Assembly (NCBI GenBank): GCA_963835575.1
Contig: CAWIGG010000002.1
Location: 480,001 to 544,000 of the forward strand
Direction of reading: 5' to 3'
DNA: 64,000 nt
From: an uncultured Spirochaetota bacterium
GTDB lineage: Bacteria > Spirochaetota > Brevinematia > Brevinematales > JAOACQ01
The position numbers were made by a program. Shown here piece by piece: positions 42,001 to 51,000 of the stretch (its first letter is position 1; each line of letters opens with the position of its first letter).

Positions 42001-45000
42001 ATCCATAAATAACCGGCGTCCTCATCATACCTTATCTTTTTTATATCCTGCAGGATTTTCTTTTTTGCTTCTTCATCGTTTGTTTTATGACGGGATTGGT
42101 TTTTTTGAGAATTGTAGGCTTCCTGGATCAAATTATATCCGACAGAAACAATATTTTTCAGGCTGTATTTGCGTTCGGTAAACAATTCCTCTCTATAATT
42201 TTTTAATCTATAATTACTGCTGATAGAAAGCAGGGTCCATAAAGAAATTAAAGAAATAATATAAAACAAAACAAGAATTAAGAGATTGAATGAAGTAATC
42301 TTTGTACCGATTTTTACGCCTTTCACAACTATCCTCCCGCTGTGAATTCCCCATTAAATAAACATCGACAAATCGATTCAAAATATGAAGCGGGCCGATC
42401 AATGGGAATAATTAATGCAGGAATGCGATTTAAAGTCCGCTCCGCTCTCAGGCTTATTTAAGGTTTTTTATAAAAACGGCACTGTTTTCCATACCATCTT
42501 TACGGGATATTCTATCAAGAGTATCTGTTTTTGGCAATAAAATATGTCCAGCAAAAAAGAGTAATACTGACATAAAAAAAGAATCTCAAAATTATTGGAA
42601 TAAATACAATGTAAATATCTGTTAAATAGTAATGAAGCCATTGAAAGGATTGACTGAAAATTTAGATGCTCTTTTATGTGAAAATGTATTAAATCAGTAT
42701 ATAATATAAGGGCGGTTCAAATAATGAAAAAATATCTTTTATCATCTTTCACCGGATAGATCGCTTCTCAAGCGGAGCCTGACAAACCGGTGAAGGAAAA
42801 TCCACTAAAATAATAACTATTGGAACATCCTATAGTAAAGTTTGAAGAAAAACGTTTCTTTTACTACGGTTATACGGGCGCCGATATATATTACTGTTTT
42901 TTATCCGGGGTAATTCTTTGAAAAAAAATACCTGTTCCTGTATTATTACCTTAAGCTTGCTATTCTTACAAACATTTTGTTTTTCTTTAACAAACATGTC
43001 CAGTTCCTCTCAATTCACTGCATTATCGAACAGTTTATCCAATACAATCAGTCCGGGCTTATCCAATGCTGTCAGTCCGGGAACAAATATAATCTTTATG
43101 TTTTATGATCCTTTTCTGCCTCTGGAGGATATTGAATCGCCGGACGATCTCAAGCTTTCCATAGCCCGCTTGTTTTACCCTGTTGATGATTTACTTTTTG
43201 AAAAGCGGGAACCGAAGTTTGCCTTAAAAAGAACACTTTCAAAAGGATTGAAGCTGTTAACTGAGGAAGATCTAAAACTTTATTCTGAACAGGCTTTTAT
43301 CAGGCAAAATCAGCAGGGCGCGCCGAAAAGGCTTGAATTTTCCGAAGAGGAAAAAAAGCATCTCAGCTTTGGTTTTGAGCAATGGGAAACTAAAGTAATT
43401 GTAAGCGGCGGCATAAATCTGCAGACAGGCTACGGCTGGTCTTTAAAAGATGAGAATTTTCCCAATTCACCCTCCGGTATTCCTCTGGGATTTAATATGA
43501 ATCAGAATATGAGGGTTAATATTGTCGGTAAAATAGGAGAAAGGGTCTCTGTCAATATCAATCATAGTTCCGATAATCCGGATAATGAATATGAAATTGC
43601 GTATAAAGCGCTGGATGCGGATGAAGGGATATTAAGGGAGCTGCGGGCCGGAAATATTTCGCTTAATATTCCCCAATCAAGCTATTTTGTGAAATATGAC
43701 GGAACAAGCAAGGACAGTTATGGTTTAAAAGCCGTTTTTAAAGCAGGGGATGTTGATATACAAACAGTCTTAAGCCTCACAAAAAGCCTGAGAGGGTACA
43801 AAAAATTTATCGGGAACAGACAGGAGCAAAGATTTGAGCTCCAGGATGTGAGTTATGTAAAGAGAAAATATTATCTCCTTCCGGATACTCAGATTGACTA
43901 TGGAAGTCTTGAGCTTCTCTCCTCAACAAGTCTGACAAACCTGGCAACCCGCAGGATTGATTCTCATTATTTTATCCGGTTGATTGAAGGGAAAGATTAT
44001 TTTATTAATAATAATACGGGAGAACTGACACTGACCAATACGCTCGACAGGAATACGGACCTGGTTGTCAAATATACGAGAAGCGGCATGATGTTTACGA
44101 CAAACTCATTGAGTATAGTCGGCCAGGATGATAATACCGGGGAAAAGTTCCTGTACCTCTGGAAAGCGGTGATGAATTTTTCGCCTTATATCCATTACGG
44201 CTATTATTCACTGCCTTACAGAAATTTTGACACAACAAGAGGTTTTTCCCTGACCGTCGTCTATACAGCTGATAAGTCGAAATTATCGGACCTTCAATTC
44301 AGTTCATATGATTATCTCATTTCTTCCTTGAATGGGACCATTCAGTTTAAAAACAAACTCCCTTTTCCAGATCTTAATGGATCAATTTATTCAAATGCGA
44401 ATGATCCTTCCTCAATAGATTCTGTTAATACAATGGTTATTGTTTTATTTAATGAAGTCGGCACTTACCAGCTGGATTTCGGAATAATCGGGGGGACAGA
44501 GCGTGTTTATGTAAACGGCAGGCTCCTTTCACCTTCTGAATATACCCTGGTTTATTCTCTGGGGGAACTTGTTTTTAATAATTCCGCCATTATCAATGAA
44601 AATGATACAATAGAAGTTTATTACGAGTACAAACCCTTCTGGGCCGGTTCGCAGAAATTCAGCATTGCCGCCCGTATGGATTATAAACCTTCAAATATTT
44701 TCAATCTGGGCAGCACGCTTGTTTACAATATAGCTCAGCGTGACGTCGGAGCTCCGCATATTGAGGCAACGCCGGAAGGAGTATTTATGTCGGATCTGGA
44801 CGGGACCCTCAATATTGCTCGGGCTTTAAAGCTTCCCGACGATTTTGAGTTTACCCTGAAAGGGGAATATGCGTTATCGGTCGTGGACCCGAATATTGCC
44901 GGTTATGCCATAATTGAGGATTTTGAAAACTCAGGCGAATCATTCGGTTTTTCTAAAACAGAAAACAACTGGATTCTCTGTTCTCCCTGCACAAATATTC

Positions 45001-48000: not shown

Positions 48001-51000
48001 TTACAATTGATTTGAGTACCAAAAATGATGTCAATTTTAATGATAGATCGGTTATTAATACAGTCGCTGCCGGGATCAGCGAGCCTTTCTTTTTCAGTAC
48101 AAACGCGAATTTATTAATTAAATACAGTCTGGCGTATAGTTCGGAAGATTATTTGCAGAATGCGGAGGAATTTGAAAAGGATTACGGGTTTACCGTGGAT
48201 GCCACCAATTATTCGCCGATGCAGAAGTACAGCCATACTGCCGGAATCGTTTATAACTGGCTTATTCCCAATGTAAAAGAAGTCAATCTTCTATTATTTA
48301 AAATCAAGCTGGCCGGTTATACAGTCAATAATCAGGAGGGATTGACTTATACAGCGGATTCGATTTCTTATCAGGGATACCGTTTCATCCAATTTACTCA
48401 AAAGATTTATGAAATTACTCTGGACCATAATACACAGTTTCAATTTTCCGATTTTGTAAAAGGCGGTATAATATTAAAAGCTGTTTTTAATCAATATGCG
48501 GAAATCACCCCGCTTGATAATTCGATTAAGACTTCATACTTCAAGCCGGGTTTCGGTTTTCTTGCGGCTATTGACGTGAAGATCACATTTTAAATGATAT
48601 AAACATTTATCACGAATAAATCCGCTTATGCACGCAAACTTGTAGTGAGCCTGCCTATAAAAGCGAAGGGGAATAGAAAATATTAGCCCGCTAATGACGC
48701 TAATTAACGAGAATAATAAAAAGCTGAAGTATATTCAGCACCAAGGACACAAAGCAATGCCCCGAGCCTGCCGAGGGGAAAACCAAGTATAAAAAATTCC
48801 TTCTTGGTGTCCTTAATGACCTAGTGGTGAATAAATTCCCGATTTGCGTGATTCGCGTGAAAGTAAACTCATATAGTTCATAATTCTTTGTGTCTGGAGC
48901 CTGTCCTGAGCGGAAGCGAAGGAAGTCTTTTTTTATGTTATTCGATATTAACACAGATAATACAGACGTCATCCTGGAAGTCATCGCTCCCATGAAACTC
49001 AACAAGTTTGAGATAAGTTTCAGCCACAAATATATTGGCGGGAGTTTTCTGAAATTTAAGGAAAGTCTCCTGGAGAGAAGCGGACTCAAAATCTTCGTCC
49101 ATATTTTTCTGATTGACAGCTTCAGTCAAACCGTCGGTATAAAGGATCAGCTTGCTTCCCGGTTTAAGAGAAATAGTCTGATTCTGGTAACCCTTCTGCA
49201 TTTTCAGCATTAATTCATTGCTGAGAATTGCGAGGGGAAGGCCCCGCCTGTAGGAGGATATCTGTTCAATCTTATTGTCGCGGATAATATAAGGCATATT
49301 ATGGCCTGCATTGGCATAAATGAATTCTTTAGAGTCGAATTTGTAAATCCCGTAAAAAGCAGTGGCAAAATTATCGCCGGTCTGATTAATCAGGGATTCG
49401 TTCAAAAGCTGCAGGAGAAACGCCGGATTATCCTGAAGCAGGCGCGTCTGAAGGATATTACTTTTAACCATTGATGTGACGAAAGCCGCAGGGACCCCAT
49501 GCCCTGAAACATCACTCACAAAGATTCCCACCCAGTTTTTTTCCCTGAATTCCAGGAAATCAAAAAAATCGCCCCCGATTTTTTCCATGGGTTTATAACA
49601 GAAAGCGATGTTGGGTTTGGGGCTTTTTGCAGGGATAAGCTGGGATTGTATCCGGCGCGCAAGGAGTATATCGTTTTCCATCTCCAGATTTCTTTTTTTT
49701 AACTCATACTGCTCTTCTTCCAATTGCGACATCAGCTGGATCCTTATAAAAGTATTGCAGATGGACTGTGTGAGAAATTCATAAATATTTCCGTATTTTA
49801 AATCAAGTTCATAGACAATATACCCGTACTGGTCTTCCAGATAAAAGAGAGGTGTGGCCATATAGGTATGCCGCCTGTGCTGGTCGTAGTACTCCTGCGG
49901 AATAAAATCGAATGGGCTGACGGGATTATTGTTTATTTTAATGAGTCTTGTGTTTGTTTTGATGTCAAAGGCAAGGGATAGATTGACTTTACCAGGAAAT
50001 TGCCATTTTTGATTTCTTTTATGTCTTATAATATTATCATAAATAAAAACATAACAGGATGTGAGCGTCAATTTGGGAAAGTTTAGAGCGATATTATTAA
50101 ATAATTCTTCCTGTGTGAAGGATGTTTGAAAAGTATTAATGACATCGCGGTTTTTCAATTCAAGCCTTTCTCTCTGGATTCTTTCGGTAATCTGAATACT
50201 GAGCTGAATGTCCTGGATAATATTAAAAGCAGATTGAAAAAGTCGGTCGATTTCCTTTTTCTGCTCAGAAATCTTATTTATATAGCAATAGAGGATATTA
50301 AGGATACCAGGCCAGAATGAAATATTAATTCCCTCTTTCTTCTGGATATTGAGTTTTTTATTAAGCTTTTTTAGAAAAACTGTAATATTATCTTCTGTCA
50401 GATTTTTATCTTCGAGAATAAGAAGCAGGTCATCAAGCAGGTCGCTGACAGAAAATGATTTCGGACCGATAAAATCTGTTAAATCTATAATCTTACGGAT
50501 TTCACTATAGAGTTTTACCCTGTCTGCTTCTTCCCCGCAATGAGATGTTTTTTCTTTTTCATCCGTATTGATGGATCTGAAGATCTCGGCAGAGCTGCTG
50601 AAGCATCCGCAGGAAGAACGGATGAGAAGCGAGGTGGGGAGAATGACTTCCGGCGGGACATCTTTCCCGTTGATAATGTCAAGGGCCAGCTCTACAGCCT
50701 TTTTACCCTGCTGATAGATCGGCTGCTTAATGGTGGTGAGCGGCGGTGATACGATTTCGCAGTCCATAATATTATCGAAACCGATAACAGCCGCTTCATC
50801 CGGCACATCGATGCCGCGGCGGGATAATTCATTAACAGCTTCTATGGCCATAGTGTCGTTCGCGGCGATTAAGCCGTCAAAAAAAGCCTTCCGGTAATCC
50901 AGCAGTTCTTTGACGGCATTGCGTCCTGAGATTTCATCAAAATTACCGGGAACAATAAGATTATCGTCGGCTTTTATTCCATATTTACGCATACTTTCAA

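What a model noticed while it worked through the whole genome (the two positions that open the first line are those of the whole stretch)
42996..48593. A SprA-type (type IX secretion) outer-membrane translocon in a spirochaete, without the PorKLMN motor
Gene g00432 (1865 aa, no Pfam or Swiss-Prot match in the tables) is a distant homologue of SprA/Sov, the giant beta-barrel translocon of the type IX secretion system, and relatives occur in 48 of 121 sampled Spirochaetota genomes. I read it as the channel of a spirochaetal T9SS-like export route that works with PorV/PorP-like barrels (g00521, g00575) and a few cargoes with CTD-like ends (g00573, g00574, g02694) but without GldKLMN or PorU. New would be SprA-dependent secretion outside the Bacteroidota, in a phylum whose outer-membrane protein export is poorly known.
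Evidence so far: Call 111: NCBIfam TIGR04189 (T9SS translocon Sov/SprA) E 4.7e-25, 87 bits (below the 200-bit cut), 3 stretches; call 127, six-frame: E 2e-19 and 1e-6 at C2:523314-525116. Call 110: ESM Atlas, 25 of 30 nearest clusters belong to a set in which 12-20% of members carry SprA_N (score 0.97). Calls 122-123, 136, 139: AlphaFold model of aa 1-1190 (20-sequence alignment, pLDDT 70, pTM 0.41); Foldseek against PDB puts the four SprA chains first (8GL6_A E 3.5e-41, 8GL8_A 1e-39, 6H3I_A 1e-34, 6H3J_A 8e-25), next hit 8e-9. Call 114: match at E<=1e-10 in 48 of 121 phylum genomes (G000 included), 39 of 77 genera; call 161: named relatives are Brevinematales, Spirochaetales and Spirochaetaceae MAGs. 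Partne [...]
(Added by a program. Inside this text positions count along the whole contig: contig position 480,001 is position 1 of the stretch shown here. "Call 12" and the like, gene names such as g00115 and contig names such as C1 are that model's own, and its searches are not shown. The text may have been shortened before it was handed on; [...] marks where a part breaks off. The agent that wrote the report below was given it as the finding of a first reader that could run no searches.)

Follow-up and report, generated by a model that had tools for sequence, protein, structure and literature searches.

The report
Motor-less SprA-like outer-membrane translocon gene
A spirochaete gene encodes a giant outer-membrane barrel related to the channel of the Bacteroidota type 9 secretion system, and it travels with matching carrier barrels and cargo tails but without the usual motor, hinting at a simpler, older form of that export route.

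Summary
Window 42918-48593 (+) is one 1891-aa gene. It more likely starts at a TTG 78 nt upstream of the annotated ATG, which adds a signal peptide.

It is a true but distant SprA/Sov homologue:
- TIGR04189 scores 87 bits, below the 200-bit cut-off.
- A 30-sequence family profile hits solved F. johnsoniae SprA at E 7.8e-40.
- Two AlphaFold models together align colinearly to SprA residues 91-2401.

It occurs in 53 of 131 sampled Spirochaetota genomes, and also in Elusimicrobia, Aerophobetes and other MAGs.

In the same 131 genomes:
- GldM, GldL, GldN and PorU never reach their family cut-offs, while positive controls for GldM and GldN worked.
- Type-A CTD tails and PorV/PorQ-family barrels are concentrated in the SprA-like carriers.
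- These two typically lie as cargo-then-barrel gene pairs.

This genome has two or three such pairs. One pair passed a complex prediction (0.89 against 0.00 for controls).

My best reading is the outer-membrane channel of a reduced type-9-like route with a dedicated carrier for each cargo. Channel function and dependence on SprA are inferred, not shown. I call it a new variant of a known kind.

The parts
42918..48593 (+). SprA-like giant outer-membrane beta-barrel gene: 1891 aa from the TTG start, stop codon included (annotated start is the ATG at 42996, 1865 aa)
   Evidence: ORF list; translations; TIGR04189 87.1 bits; family profile against solved SprA, E 7.8e-40; hhalign against a canonical SprA, probability 98.4%, 1003 columns
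42918..42995 (+). Likely signal peptide (26 residues: two Lys, then a hydrophobic stretch) that the annotated ATG start leaves out
   Evidence: Sequence and translation. GGGG lies 9-12 nt upstream of the TTG. Homologues also begin with signal-peptide-like N-termini. This is read from the sequence; no predictor was run.
43314..43880 (+). Best-conserved N-terminal SprA stretch (aa 134-321, matching TIGR04189 positions 74-256)
   Evidence: E 2.2e-19, 68.5 bits in the six-frame search
44481..45116 (+). Second SprA-matching stretch (TIGR04189 positions 603-834)
   Evidence: E 9.5e-7
42996..46517 (+). N-terminal two thirds, modelled. It contains barrel strands plus inserted beta-sandwich (cap-like) domains and is colinear with SprA residues 91-1514.
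   Evidence: Model pLDDT 77.1. Foldseek E 1.9e-40 to SprA, next hit 7.5e-9. VIA-align Z 16.0 (rmsd 21.9, 825 aligned) and Z 15.3 (rmsd 8.8, 624 aligned); the next family scores Z 13.0 over only 151 residues.
46365..48590 (+). C-terminal third, modelled: about 24 long antiparallel strands forming a barrel wall and ending in Phe. It is colinear with SprA residues 1515-2401.
   Evidence: Model pLDDT 83.8, pTM 0.72. SprA is Foldseek's top hit, but at E 2.3e-6, close to TonB-dependent transporters. VIA-align Z 13.4, rmsd 11.4, 535 aligned, tied with many other barrels. The fold is a barrel; the specific likeness to SprA in this part is only consistent, not discriminating.

Best explanation
The gene encodes a Sec-exported giant outer-membrane beta-barrel of the SprA/Sov superfamily. 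I propose that it is the outer-membrane channel of a reduced, type-9-like export route.

The proposed steps are as follows. A periplasmic cargo with a C-terminal beta-sandwich tail (type-A-like CTD) enters the barrel. Its tail is caught by the loops of a PorV/PorQ-family 14-strand carrier barrel, which is encoded directly downstream of the cargo gene. The cargo-carrier pair then leaves sideways into the outer membrane, where the cargo stays displayed on its carrier.

There is no GldLM/PorLM motor, no GldN ring and no PorU sortase. Release would therefore have to be spontaneous or driven by something not yet recognised, and the tail is probably not cleaved.

Shown here:
- homology and colinearity with SprA;
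- lack of motor and sortase matches;
- co-occurrence with carriers and tails;
- cargo-carrier gene pairing.

Inferred:
- that the barrel conducts these cargoes;
- the order of the steps;
- the energetics.
For: Homology to SprA:
- TIGR04189 at E 4.8e-25.
- Family profile against solved F. johnsoniae SprA: E 7.8e-40, in stretches 116-684 to 128-905 and 842-1067 to 1158-1403.
- hhalign against a canonical 2460-aa SprA that itself scores 2361.5 bits: probability 98.4%, E 5e-15, 1003 columns.
- Foldseek 1.9e-40 against 7.5e-9 for the next fold.
- The two models align end to end with SprA 91-1514 and 1515-2401.

Outer-membrane features:
- a signal-peptide-like N-terminus;
- a C-terminal Phe;
- about 24 long strands in the last 742 aa.

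Partners in this genome:
- A 518-aa PorV/PorQ-family barrel at C2:632127-633683 scores 99.3 bits against a cut-off of 90. It lies directly after a 416-aa gene with a weak CTD tail.
- A 420-aa PorP/PorV-like barrel (33-34 bits) lies directly after two 2574/2600-aa proteins that end in FlgD_ig-type tails.
- A 651-aa protein has a type-A CTD above its cut-off, 31.5 against 23 bits.

Co-occurrence in the same 131 Spirochaetota genomes:
- A CTD hit is present in 47 of 53 SprA-like carriers against 19 of 78 non-carriers.
- Two or more CTD hits are present in 36 of 53 against 3 of 78.
- PorV_fam exceeds its cut-off in 34 genomes. By my reading of the rows, 32 of these carry the SprA-like gene.

Gene pairing:
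- In five genomes of other phyla, 16 of 23 CTD hits have a PorV_fam hit starting within 1 kb downstream on the same strand. About 0.1 is expected by chance.
- In 19 of 20 fetched barrel loci the upstream gene ends in a CTD-like tail.
- The upstream genes encode typical exported proteins: glucoamylase, CBMs, a PLD-like enzyme, propellers and fn3 domains.

Predicted binding of this genome's CTD tail to its neighbouring barrel:
- Score 0.89, best of 3 controls 0.00.
- That mark was reached by 116 of 157 solved complexes and 2 of 215 mismatched pairs.
- The runs agree in at least 93% of contacts, and the partner's pLDDT is at least 87.
- The conserved Lys near the tail's end is among the lowest-error contacts. 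This recalls the conserved Lys-to-PorV-loop contact described in PMC10994853 (passages read).

No motor or sortase found:
- GldM over cut-off in 0 of 131 genomes, GldL 0 of 131, GldN 0 of 131, PorU 0 of 131.
- GldM in 0 of 5 genomes of other phyla.
- Controls in a Saprospiraceae genome: GldM 223 bits and GldN 190 bits.
Against: - In the studied system, energy from GldLM is needed to pull the carrier-substrate complex off SprA (PMC10994853, passages read). A motor-less version has no known way to do this.
- The link between the SprA-like barrel and the CTD/PorV pairs is only correlational, and related genomes are not independent.
- The SprA-like gene stands alone between unrelated genes. It lies about 100-180 kb from the pairs on the same contig. 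In 46 related loci no type-9 gene is a conserved neighbour.
- 6 of 53 SprA-like carriers have no CTD hit. An Endomicrobium genome and an Aerophobetes genome keep the barrel with 0 CTD hits.
- 19 of 78 non-carriers have a CTD hit, mostly a single one.
- One family without the SprA-like gene (f20, 0 of 8) has sub-threshold PorV_fam matches in 8 of 8 genomes.
- Bacteroides thetaiotaomicron gave no TIGR04189 match among the 14 control genomes, yet it has a PorV_fam match over the cut-off.
- Two of this genome's three or four CTD tails are below the curated thresholds.
- The complex prediction may pass from likeness to solved PorV-CTD complexes (8GL6, 8GL8).
- The protein fails the SprA equivalog cut-off and lacks a Pfam SprA_N hit.
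- No full-length model exists, so strand number, cap and lateral opening were not seen.
Confidence: 0.6

Rival explanations
1. The barrel has a housekeeping envelope role unrelated to CTD cargo, such as outer-membrane biogenesis, export of a lipid, glycan or lipoprotein, or a large general channel. The CTD-cargo plus PorV-family pairs would then work on their own or through another route, and the co-occurrence would only reflect shared ancestry and lifestyle.
For: - The gene is single-copy in most carriers, and its tree follows taxonomy. Spirochaetota form one clade with Leptospirales-like, Spirochaetales and Brevinematales sub-clades, each with SH-aLRT 100.
- Its conserved neighbours are envelope or housekeeping genes. 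An M23 peptidase lies directly upstream in 13 loci, and a divergent LptF/LptG pair lies upstream in 5 Elusimicrobia loci. EF-G and the DnaK operon are neighbours elsewhere.
- The gene is kept in a 1.0-Mb Endomicrobium genome and in an Aerophobetes genome, both with 0 CTD hits. 6 of 53 Spirochaetota carriers also have no CTD hit.
- PorV_fam barrels exist without the SprA-like gene (family f20, and the B. thetaiotaomicron control).
Against: - The only characterised members of the superfamily are protein translocons.
- The association with CTD tails is strong (two or more hits in 36 of 53 carriers against 3 of 78 non-carriers). It recurs in a second, separately branching clade, Elusimicrobia and allies.
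- The gene is broken into at least 6 ORFs in one Endomicrobium MAG (L045), so it is not universally essential.
Confidence: 0.2
2. It is an energised type-9-like system after all. A motor and coupling proteins exist but are too diverged from, or unrelated to, GldKLMN (for example a Ton/Tol/Mot-type stator with a periplasmic arm), so family searches miss them.
For: - The canonical mechanism needs energy at the release step (PMC10994853, passages read).
- The searches used family profiles built from Bacteroidota, and the SprA-like protein itself scores only 87 of 200 bits. Partner proteins could be equally diverged.
- GldK, SprE/PorW, SkpA and PorD were not searched here.
Against: - GldM, GldL and GldN gave no match over their cut-offs in 131 genomes. 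The few weak GldL matches (19-26 bits, in 600-750-aa frames) lie mostly in genomes without the SprA-like gene.
- No conserved unknown neighbour of the barrel gene spans the clades.
Confidence: 0.15
3. The gene is a decaying or non-functional relic of an ancient transfer from the Bacteroidota group.
For: It scores below the family cut-off. One relative carries a broken copy (L045), and another holds a C-terminal fragment with 6 stop codons (G066:C2:89560-89814).
Against: - The 1891-aa frame is intact, and 20 relatives share 42-63% identity with it.
- Over 100 alignment columns are invariant.
- 3949 cluster representatives match at E<=1e-3 in 1.84 billion proteins.
- The tree follows taxonomy and does not nest the family inside Bacteroidota.
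Confidence: 0.03

Closest known systems
SprA (Flavobacterium johnsoniae) / Sov (Porphyromonas gingivalis), the type 9 secretion translocon (PDB 6H3I, 6H3J, 8GL6, 8GL8; NCBIfam TIGR04189)
   Same: - Giant outer-membrane beta-barrel.
- Significant sequence homology over about 1000 columns.
- Fold colinear from SprA residue 91 to 2401.
- Signal peptide.
- Occurs in genomes that also hold PorV-family barrels and CTD-tailed proteins.
   Different: - About 500 residues shorter (1891 against 2403 aa); the alignment shows large SprA-only insertions.
- 87 bits against a 200-bit equivalog cut-off, and no Pfam SprA_N hit.
- Found in Spirochaetota, Elusimicrobia and Aerophobetes rather than the Bacteroidota group.
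- No GldL, GldM, GldN or PorU found in the same genomes.
- The SprA periplasmic partners SprE, SkpA, PorD, PPI and Plug were not searched.
Type-B CTD cargo with dedicated PorP/SprF-like carriers in gliding Bacteroidota
   Same: One carrier barrel is encoded next to each cargo gene, and the cargo is expected to stay anchored on its carrier. [quoted passage not shown] The sprB-sprF gene adjacency is recalled, not checked here.
   Different: - The tails here resemble type-A CTDs (TIGR04183, Por_Secre_tail, FlgD_ig). The type-B model gave only weak internal repeats.
- The carriers match the PorV/PorQ family model rather than PorP. In this genome one carrier is a borderline PorP/PorV match.
- There is no gliding track or motor to load them on.
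PorV/PorQ-family (FadL-like) barrels in organisms without type 9 secretion (Bacteroides thetaiotaomicron; Brachyspira pilosicoli BP951000_RS08455)
   Same: The same barrel family is detectable (control; passage in 10.1101/2025.01.03.631275).
   Different: Those genomes gave no SprA-like match (controls; family f20, 0 of 8).

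Membership tests
SprA/Sov translocon (NCBIfam TIGR04189 equivalog) | Score at or above the curated equivalog cut-off (200 bits) | tested here: not met
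   87.1 bits. Among 28 relatives tested, 22 hit the model at 58-186 bits and none reached 200. A canonical SprA scores 2361.5 bits.
SprA/Sov translocon | Pfam SprA_N (PF14349) domain | tested here: not met
   No hit at E<=10. A distant relative, P0024, carries it.
SprA/Sov superfamily (homology) | Significant sequence similarity to an experimentally solved SprA | tested here: met
   Profile A3 against PDB sequences: E 7.8e-40, 139.4 bits, next hit E 0.096. hhalign against a canonical SprA: probability 98.4%, 1003 columns.
SprA/Sov superfamily (fold) | N-terminal two thirds fold like SprA and stand clear of other folds | tested here: met
   Foldseek 1.9e-40 to 1.4e-26 for the four SprA chains, next hit 7.5e-9. 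VIA-align Z 14.7-16.0 with 614-864 aligned residues (rmsd 8.8-23.0), SprA range 91-1514.
SprA/Sov superfamily (fold) | C-terminal third matches the SprA barrel wall specifically | tested here: inconclusive
   SprA is Foldseek's top hit, but at E 2.3e-6 among TonB-dependent transporters. VIA-align Z 13.4 (rmsd 11.4, 535 aligned, SprA 1515-2401) is tied with many other barrels at Z 13-15.
SprA/Sov translocon | 36-strand barrel with an extracellular cap and a lateral opening | not testable with these tools
   The protein exceeds the 1200-residue limit for folding, so only two halves were modelled. About 24 long strands lie in the last 742 aa.
Type 9 secretion system (whole system) | GldL/PorL-GldM/PorM proton-driven motor | tested here: not met
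   Own genome (94% complete): GldM best E 0.095, GldL no match. Over cut-off in 0 of 131 phylum genomes for both. Control GldM 223 bits. No positive control was run for GldL.
Type 9 secretion system (whole system) | GldK/PorK-GldN/PorN ring | tested here: not met
   GldN in 0 of 131 genomes; control 190 bits. GldK was not searched by me.
Type 9 secretion system (whole system) | PorV-type carrier barrel | tested here: met
   PorV/PorQ family model NF033709: 99.3 bits against a cut-off of 90, covering the whole profile. The PorV equivalog NF033710 scores only 32 bits against 250.
Type 9 secretion system (whole system) | Cargo with a C-terminal sorting domain (TIGR04183 or TIGR04131) | tested here: met
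   Type A is over its cut-off in two proteins (34.5/31.5 bits and 23.8 bits, cut-off 23). Two more tails are below it. Type B gave only weak internal repeats.
Type 9 secretion system (whole system) | PorU C-terminal signal peptidase/sortase | tested here: not met
   Over the 420-bit cut-off in 0 of 131 genomes; best score 58.6 bits. Nearly all listed matches fall on profile positions 945-1095, which is PorU's own tail.
Type 9 secretion system (whole system) | Export of CTD proteins depends on the SprA-type channel | not testable with these tools
   Only co-occurrence and a predicted cargo-carrier interface are available.

The most novel reading that the evidence does not exclude
The trio of an SprA-type channel, a PorV-type carrier and a CTD tail is the ancestral, self-sufficient core of type 9 secretion. 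It would have been inherited vertically in Spirochaetota and in the Elusimicrobia-Aerophobetes clade, and it would work without any proton-driven motor. Each cargo brings its own single-use carrier, encoded next to it, so no energised recycling of a shared carrier is needed. On this view the GldKLMN motor/hub and the PorU sortase are later additions of the Bacteroidota group, tied to gliding and to a shared PorV.
Probability: 0.3. Interest if true: 0.9.

Novelty: new variant of a known kind. Interest (0 to 1): 0.78.

Why it matters
Type 9 secretion is treated as a system of the Bacteroidota group that strictly needs a proton-driven motor. TXSScan found it in 60 of 97 Bacteroidetes genomes and in no other clade (PMC4793230, passages read). 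Energy is needed for the release step (PMC10994853, passages read).

Here the channel, the carriers and the cargo tails appear together in several other phyla, with no motor, ring or sortase detected. If this works as proposed, it would do four things:
- give spirochaetes and Elusimicrobia a route for putting large enzymes and adhesins on their surface, an area that is poorly understood;
- provide a natural minimal system for asking which step of type 9 transport really needs energy;
- suggest how the system evolved;
- offer a practical annotation rule for metagenomes, namely that a gene ending in a CTD tail and followed by a PorV-family barrel marks a surface-protein candidate.

The family is large: 3949 cluster representatives match at E<=1e-3.

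Tried and rejected
- Gene neighbourhood as a guide to partners. In 46 related loci no type-9 gene is conserved beside the barrel gene. The conserved neighbours are clade-specific: M23 peptidase, LptF/LptG, a ComF-like gene, and two unknown paralogues plus MutL.
- C-terminal model as proof of SprA likeness. Foldseek and VIA-align could not separate SprA from other large barrels.
- Type-B CTD model. It gave only weak internal repeats in 1365- and 893-aa frames.
- PorV equivalog model NF033710. It proved a poor probe (28 of 131 genomes, none over cut-off), so I replaced it with the family model NF033709.
- RNA evidence. No RNA holder was listed, and only one DNA run held a 0.06 share of the words. 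I did not lay reads.
- Promoter and terminator scan. It returned only consensus matches, for example a 10-of-12 site at 42678-42705. I did not use it as evidence.
- The first attempts at the representative search failed on length limits. It succeeded with a cut alignment.
- Literature. Seven full-text searches found no paper describing an SprA homologue or a type-9-like system in Spirochaetota or Elusimicrobia. Subscription journals are not covered, and supplements were not opened.
- ESM Atlas look-up of the 274-aa ORF after the 651-aa CTD protein. It gave unnamed clusters first and PorV-domain clusters at 0.91. I treat this as a lead only.

Full report
**1. The gene**

Window 42918-48593 (+) is one open frame of 1891 aa from a TTG start; the annotated ATG at 42996 gives 1865 aa. 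The extra 26 residues carry two lysines and a hydrophobic stretch, as a signal peptide does. GGGG lies 9-12 nt before the TTG, while nothing similar precedes the ATG. Relatives also begin with signal-peptide-like N-termini. The protein ends in Phe.

The gene stands alone. A chemoreceptor gene lies upstream on the other strand. Downstream, convergent, is a gene for a periplasmic-binding-domain/SpoIIE phosphatase, followed by a GGDEF protein gene. The genome (G000) has 4.39 Mb in 7 contigs and is 94% complete. Its closest named relatives are Brevinematales MAGs.

**2. Homology to SprA**

- NCBIfam TIGR04189 matches at E 4.8e-25 and 87.1 bits, below the 200-bit equivalog cut-off. Pfam gives no SprA_N hit.
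- A 30-row family profile (A3) finds F. johnsoniae SprA among 177,635 PDB sequences at E 7.8e-40. The stretches are 116-684 to 128-905 and 842-1067 to 1158-1403, and the next hit is at E 0.096.
- A canonical SprA taken from a Saprospiraceae genome scores 2361.5 bits on TIGR04189. It aligns to the family profile with 98.4% probability over 1003 columns.
The four SprA chains score 1.9e-40 to 1.4e-26, and the next fold scores 7.5e-9.
- VIA-align gives Z 14.7-16.0 with 614-864 aligned residues, mapping to SprA 91-1514.
- A new model of aa 1150-1891 (pLDDT 83.8, pTM 0.72) is a wall of about 24 long strands. It aligns to SprA 1515-2401 (Z 13.4, rmsd 11.4, 535 residues). Other large barrels score the same, so this part is consistent rather than decisive.
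- Together the two halves are colinear with SprA from residue 91 to 2401. The protein is about 500 residues shorter than SprA, which carries large insertions in the alignment.

**3. Distribution**

- Close relatives (42-63% identity) are unnamed or called hypothetical proteins.
- A scan of one genome per species found 46 loci. They come from Brevinematales, Leptospirales-like and Spirochaetales MAGs, and also from Aerophobetes, Elusimicrobia/Endomicrobia and two MAGs labelled Clostridia.
- Of 28 relatives tested, 22 hit TIGR04189 at 58-186 bits and none reached 200. The non-spirochaetal ones score highest.
- In a fixed sample of 131 Spirochaetota genomes, 53 genomes (41 of 80 genera) have a match at E<=1e-5. 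Most have one copy in a frame of 1600-2300 aa. Several large families have none: f13 0 of 13, f20 0 of 8, f26 0 of 7.
- In 1.84 billion cluster representatives, 3949 match at E<=1e-3 and 1279 at E<=1e-30.
- A quick maximum-likelihood tree was built from 28 rows and 1673 columns with LG+G4, using SH-aLRT support only. All 15 Spirochaetota rows form one clade (support 100), subdivided by order. Elusimicrobia, the 'Clostridia' MAGs and Aerophobetes form a second clade (99). Both clades are set apart from the canonical SprA and from P0024. The program flagged composition bias and the long outgroup branch.
- This pattern fits old, mostly vertical inheritance rather than a recent transfer from Bacteroidota.

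**4. What is missing**

In the same 131 genomes, none of these families reaches its cut-off:
- GldM: 0 over cut-off, with one 23.8-bit match.
- GldL: 0 over cut-off. Twelve matches of 19-26 bits fall in 600-750-aa frames, mostly in genomes without the barrel.
- GldN: 0 matches.
- PorU: 0 over its 420-bit cut-off, best score 58.6 bits. Nearly all listed matches fall on PorU's own C-terminal tail.

In the own genome, GldM and GldL are also not found. GldM is not found in 5 genomes of the other phyla. The method does find GldM (223 bits) and GldN (190 bits) side by side in a Saprospiraceae genome. I did not search GldK, SprE/PorW, SkpA, PorD, Plug or PPI, and GldL had no positive control.

**5. 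What travels with the barrel**

*Type-A CTD tails (TIGR04183).* These occur in 66 of 131 genomes, 60 of them over the cut-off, and in 0 of 14 controls.
- 47 of 53 barrel carriers have a hit, against 19 of 78 non-carriers.
- Two or more hits occur in 36 of 53 carriers against 3 of 78 non-carriers. One of those three is a 78%-complete genome whose kin carry the barrel.
- Ten genomes have 15 to 40 or more listed hits. The nine of them that carry the barrel, plus the incomplete one, also show expansions of PorV-type barrels.

*PorV/PorQ family model NF033709.* It is over its cut-off in 34 of 131 genomes. By my reading of the listed rows, 32 of these carry the barrel; the exceptions are G079 and G073.

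*Results against the link.*
- Family f20 has sub-threshold PorV_fam matches in 8 of 8 genomes and single CTD hits in 7 of 8, yet no barrel.
- The B. thetaiotaomicron control is over the PorV_fam cut-off.
- 6 barrel carriers have no CTD hit.
- Relatedness inflates any statistic drawn from these counts.

**6. Cargo-then-carrier gene pairs**

- For five genomes of other phyla all rows were listed. There, 16 of 23 CTD hits have a PorV_fam hit starting within 1 kb downstream on the same strand, where about 0.1 is expected by chance.
- Two Elusimicrobia genomes and one 'Clostridia' MAG hold 3-11 CTD hits and 10-25 PorV_fam hits each. An Endomicrobium genome (1.0 Mb) and an Aerophobetes genome hold 0 CTD hits and 2 PorV_fam hits each.
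- I fetched 20 barrel loci from 11 genomes. In 19 the upstream same-strand gene ends in a tail with the shared pattern PNP, IxIYxxxGxLV, W, GxY and K-I/V-x-x-I/V-K/R at the very end. In the twentieth (L089) my ORF picker passed over a 127-aa frame that one search reports as a CTD hit.
- Pfam finds Por_Secre_tail, FlgD_ig or CHU_C at the C-terminus of 14 of 17 of these upstream proteins at E<=1e-3. Only 4 are over the gathering scores.
- Their other domains are typical of exported proteins: glucoamylase, CBM11/30/96, a PLD-like domain, LVIVD and PQQ propellers, fn3 and lamin-tail domains.

**7. This genome's own set, all outside the window**

- C2:630880-632130 encodes a 416-aa protein with a weak tail (CHU_C E 3.8e-4; TIGR04183 E 3.9e-3). 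It is followed at C2:632127-633683 by a 518-aa PorV/PorQ-family barrel (99.3 bits, cut-off 90, whole profile covered) that carries an added TPR and CBM48-like end.
- C2:692590-708106 encodes two proteins of 2574 and 2600 aa that end in FlgD_ig-type tails (28.5 and 28.4 bits, gathering score 27). They are followed at C2:708121-709383 by a 420-aa barrel with weak PorV_fam (34 bits) and PorP (33 bits) matches.
- C4:724250-726205 (-) encodes a 651-aa lamin-tail-domain protein with a type-A CTD over its cut-off (31.5 bits). It is followed by a 274-aa ORF of no family, for which the Atlas gives PorV-domain clusters only at 0.91. I treat that as a lead.
- A complex prediction paired the first barrel (aa 1-335, 19-row alignment) with the last 95 aa of its upstream neighbour (21-row alignment). 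It scored 0.89 against 0.00 for the best of 3 controls. That mark was reached by 116 of 157 solved complexes and 2 of 215 mismatched pairs. The runs agree in at least 93% of contacts, and the partner's pLDDT is at least 87.
- Because PorV-CTD complexes have been solved, this pass shows likeness to them. It does not prove that this pair binds.

**8. Mechanism**

In F. johnsoniae, substrates load onto PorV loops inside the SprA pore without energy. The GldLM-driven chain is needed to pull the carrier-substrate complex away. Type-B substrates use alternative carriers that then anchor them (PMC10994853, passages read).

The simplest reading of the present data is the same loading chemistry with a dedicated carrier for each cargo and no shared, recycled PorV. 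Without PorU the tail is probably not cleaved, and the cargo would stay on its carrier. How release happens without the motor is open.

My confidence is about 0.95 that this is an outer-membrane SprA-superfamily barrel. It is about 0.6 for the whole route as described.

**9. Rivals**

- A housekeeping envelope role, with the CTD-carrier pairs independent of the barrel (0.2). In favour are the conserved M23 and LptFG neighbours and the barrel's retention where no CTD is found.
- A hidden, diverged motor (0.15).
- A relic gene (0.03). Against this are the conservation of the frame and the family's size.

**10. Novelty**

Seven full-text searches found no description of an SprA homologue or a type-9-like route in Spirochaetota or Elusimicrobia. 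TXSScan reported the system only in Bacteroidetes (PMC4793230, passages read). A Brachyspira preprint notes a PorV/PorQ-family barrel but no channel (10.1101/2025.01.03.631275, passages read). Subscription literature and supplements were not seen.

I rate this a new variant of a known kind.

Noticed in passing
L045:10001-13700 (Endomicrobium sp. MAG): The SprA-like gene is split into at least six ORFs (494, 97, 119, 86, 82 and 149 aa). Its LptF/LptG and ComF-like neighbours are intact, so this looks like a pseudogene in a reduced genome.
   Followed up: no
G066:C2:89560-89814 (same family as the window's genome): A second match to the last 80 profile positions of the barrel family holds 6 stop codons. 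It lies about 18 kb from the intact copy and looks like a remnant of a duplicate.
   Followed up: no
L038, L039, L043, L045, L046 (Elusimicrobia loci): A pair of LptF/LptG lipopolysaccharide-export permease genes lies directly upstream of the SprA-like gene on the other strand. A ComF-like phosphoribosyltransferase gene follows it.
   Followed up: partly
L010-L018, L020-L022, L026 (Leptospirales-like loci): An M23 peptidase gene of about 331 aa lies directly upstream of the SprA-like gene on the same strand in 13 loci. In two of them the rest of the synteny is lost.
   Followed up: partly
G000:C2:632127-633683 (outside the window): This genome's PorV/PorQ-family barrel carries an extra C-terminal TPR plus a glycogen-binding (AMPK1_CBM/CBM48) domain. 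Orthologues of 523-550 aa occur in related genomes.
   Followed up: partly
genus g22 of the phylum sample (e.g. G041:C1:2298743-2299024): Stand-alone ORFs of about 120-160 aa match only the C-terminal tail region of the PorU model. They occur in 11 of 11 genomes of a genus that lacks the SprA-like gene. A CTD-like sandwich alone is therefore not proof of type-9 cargo.
   Followed up: no
G131:C12:251636-251902 (Elusimicrobia genome of L038): A weak CTD-type match (E 3.7e-4) lies inside an open frame of 17,295 aa.
   Followed up: no
window 44890-46517 (aa about 660-1200 of the protein): The modelled N-terminal part contains an inserted jelly-roll domain. On its own it resembles carbohydrate-binding modules (CBM11: Z 13.0, rmsd 2.8, 151 residues). 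It may be part of an extracellular cap.
   Followed up: no
window 48938-51475 (-) and 51498-53813 (-): Two neighbouring paralogous sensor genes have LacI-type periplasmic binding domains. One ends in a SpoIIE phosphatase domain and the other in a GGDEF domain. A SpoIIE gene also lies near the barrel gene in the Leptospirales-like loci.
   Followed up: no
window 57166-58455 (-): A 429-aa protein with weak CsgG and LpoB-like matches, possibly an outer-membrane lipoprotein.
   Followed up: no
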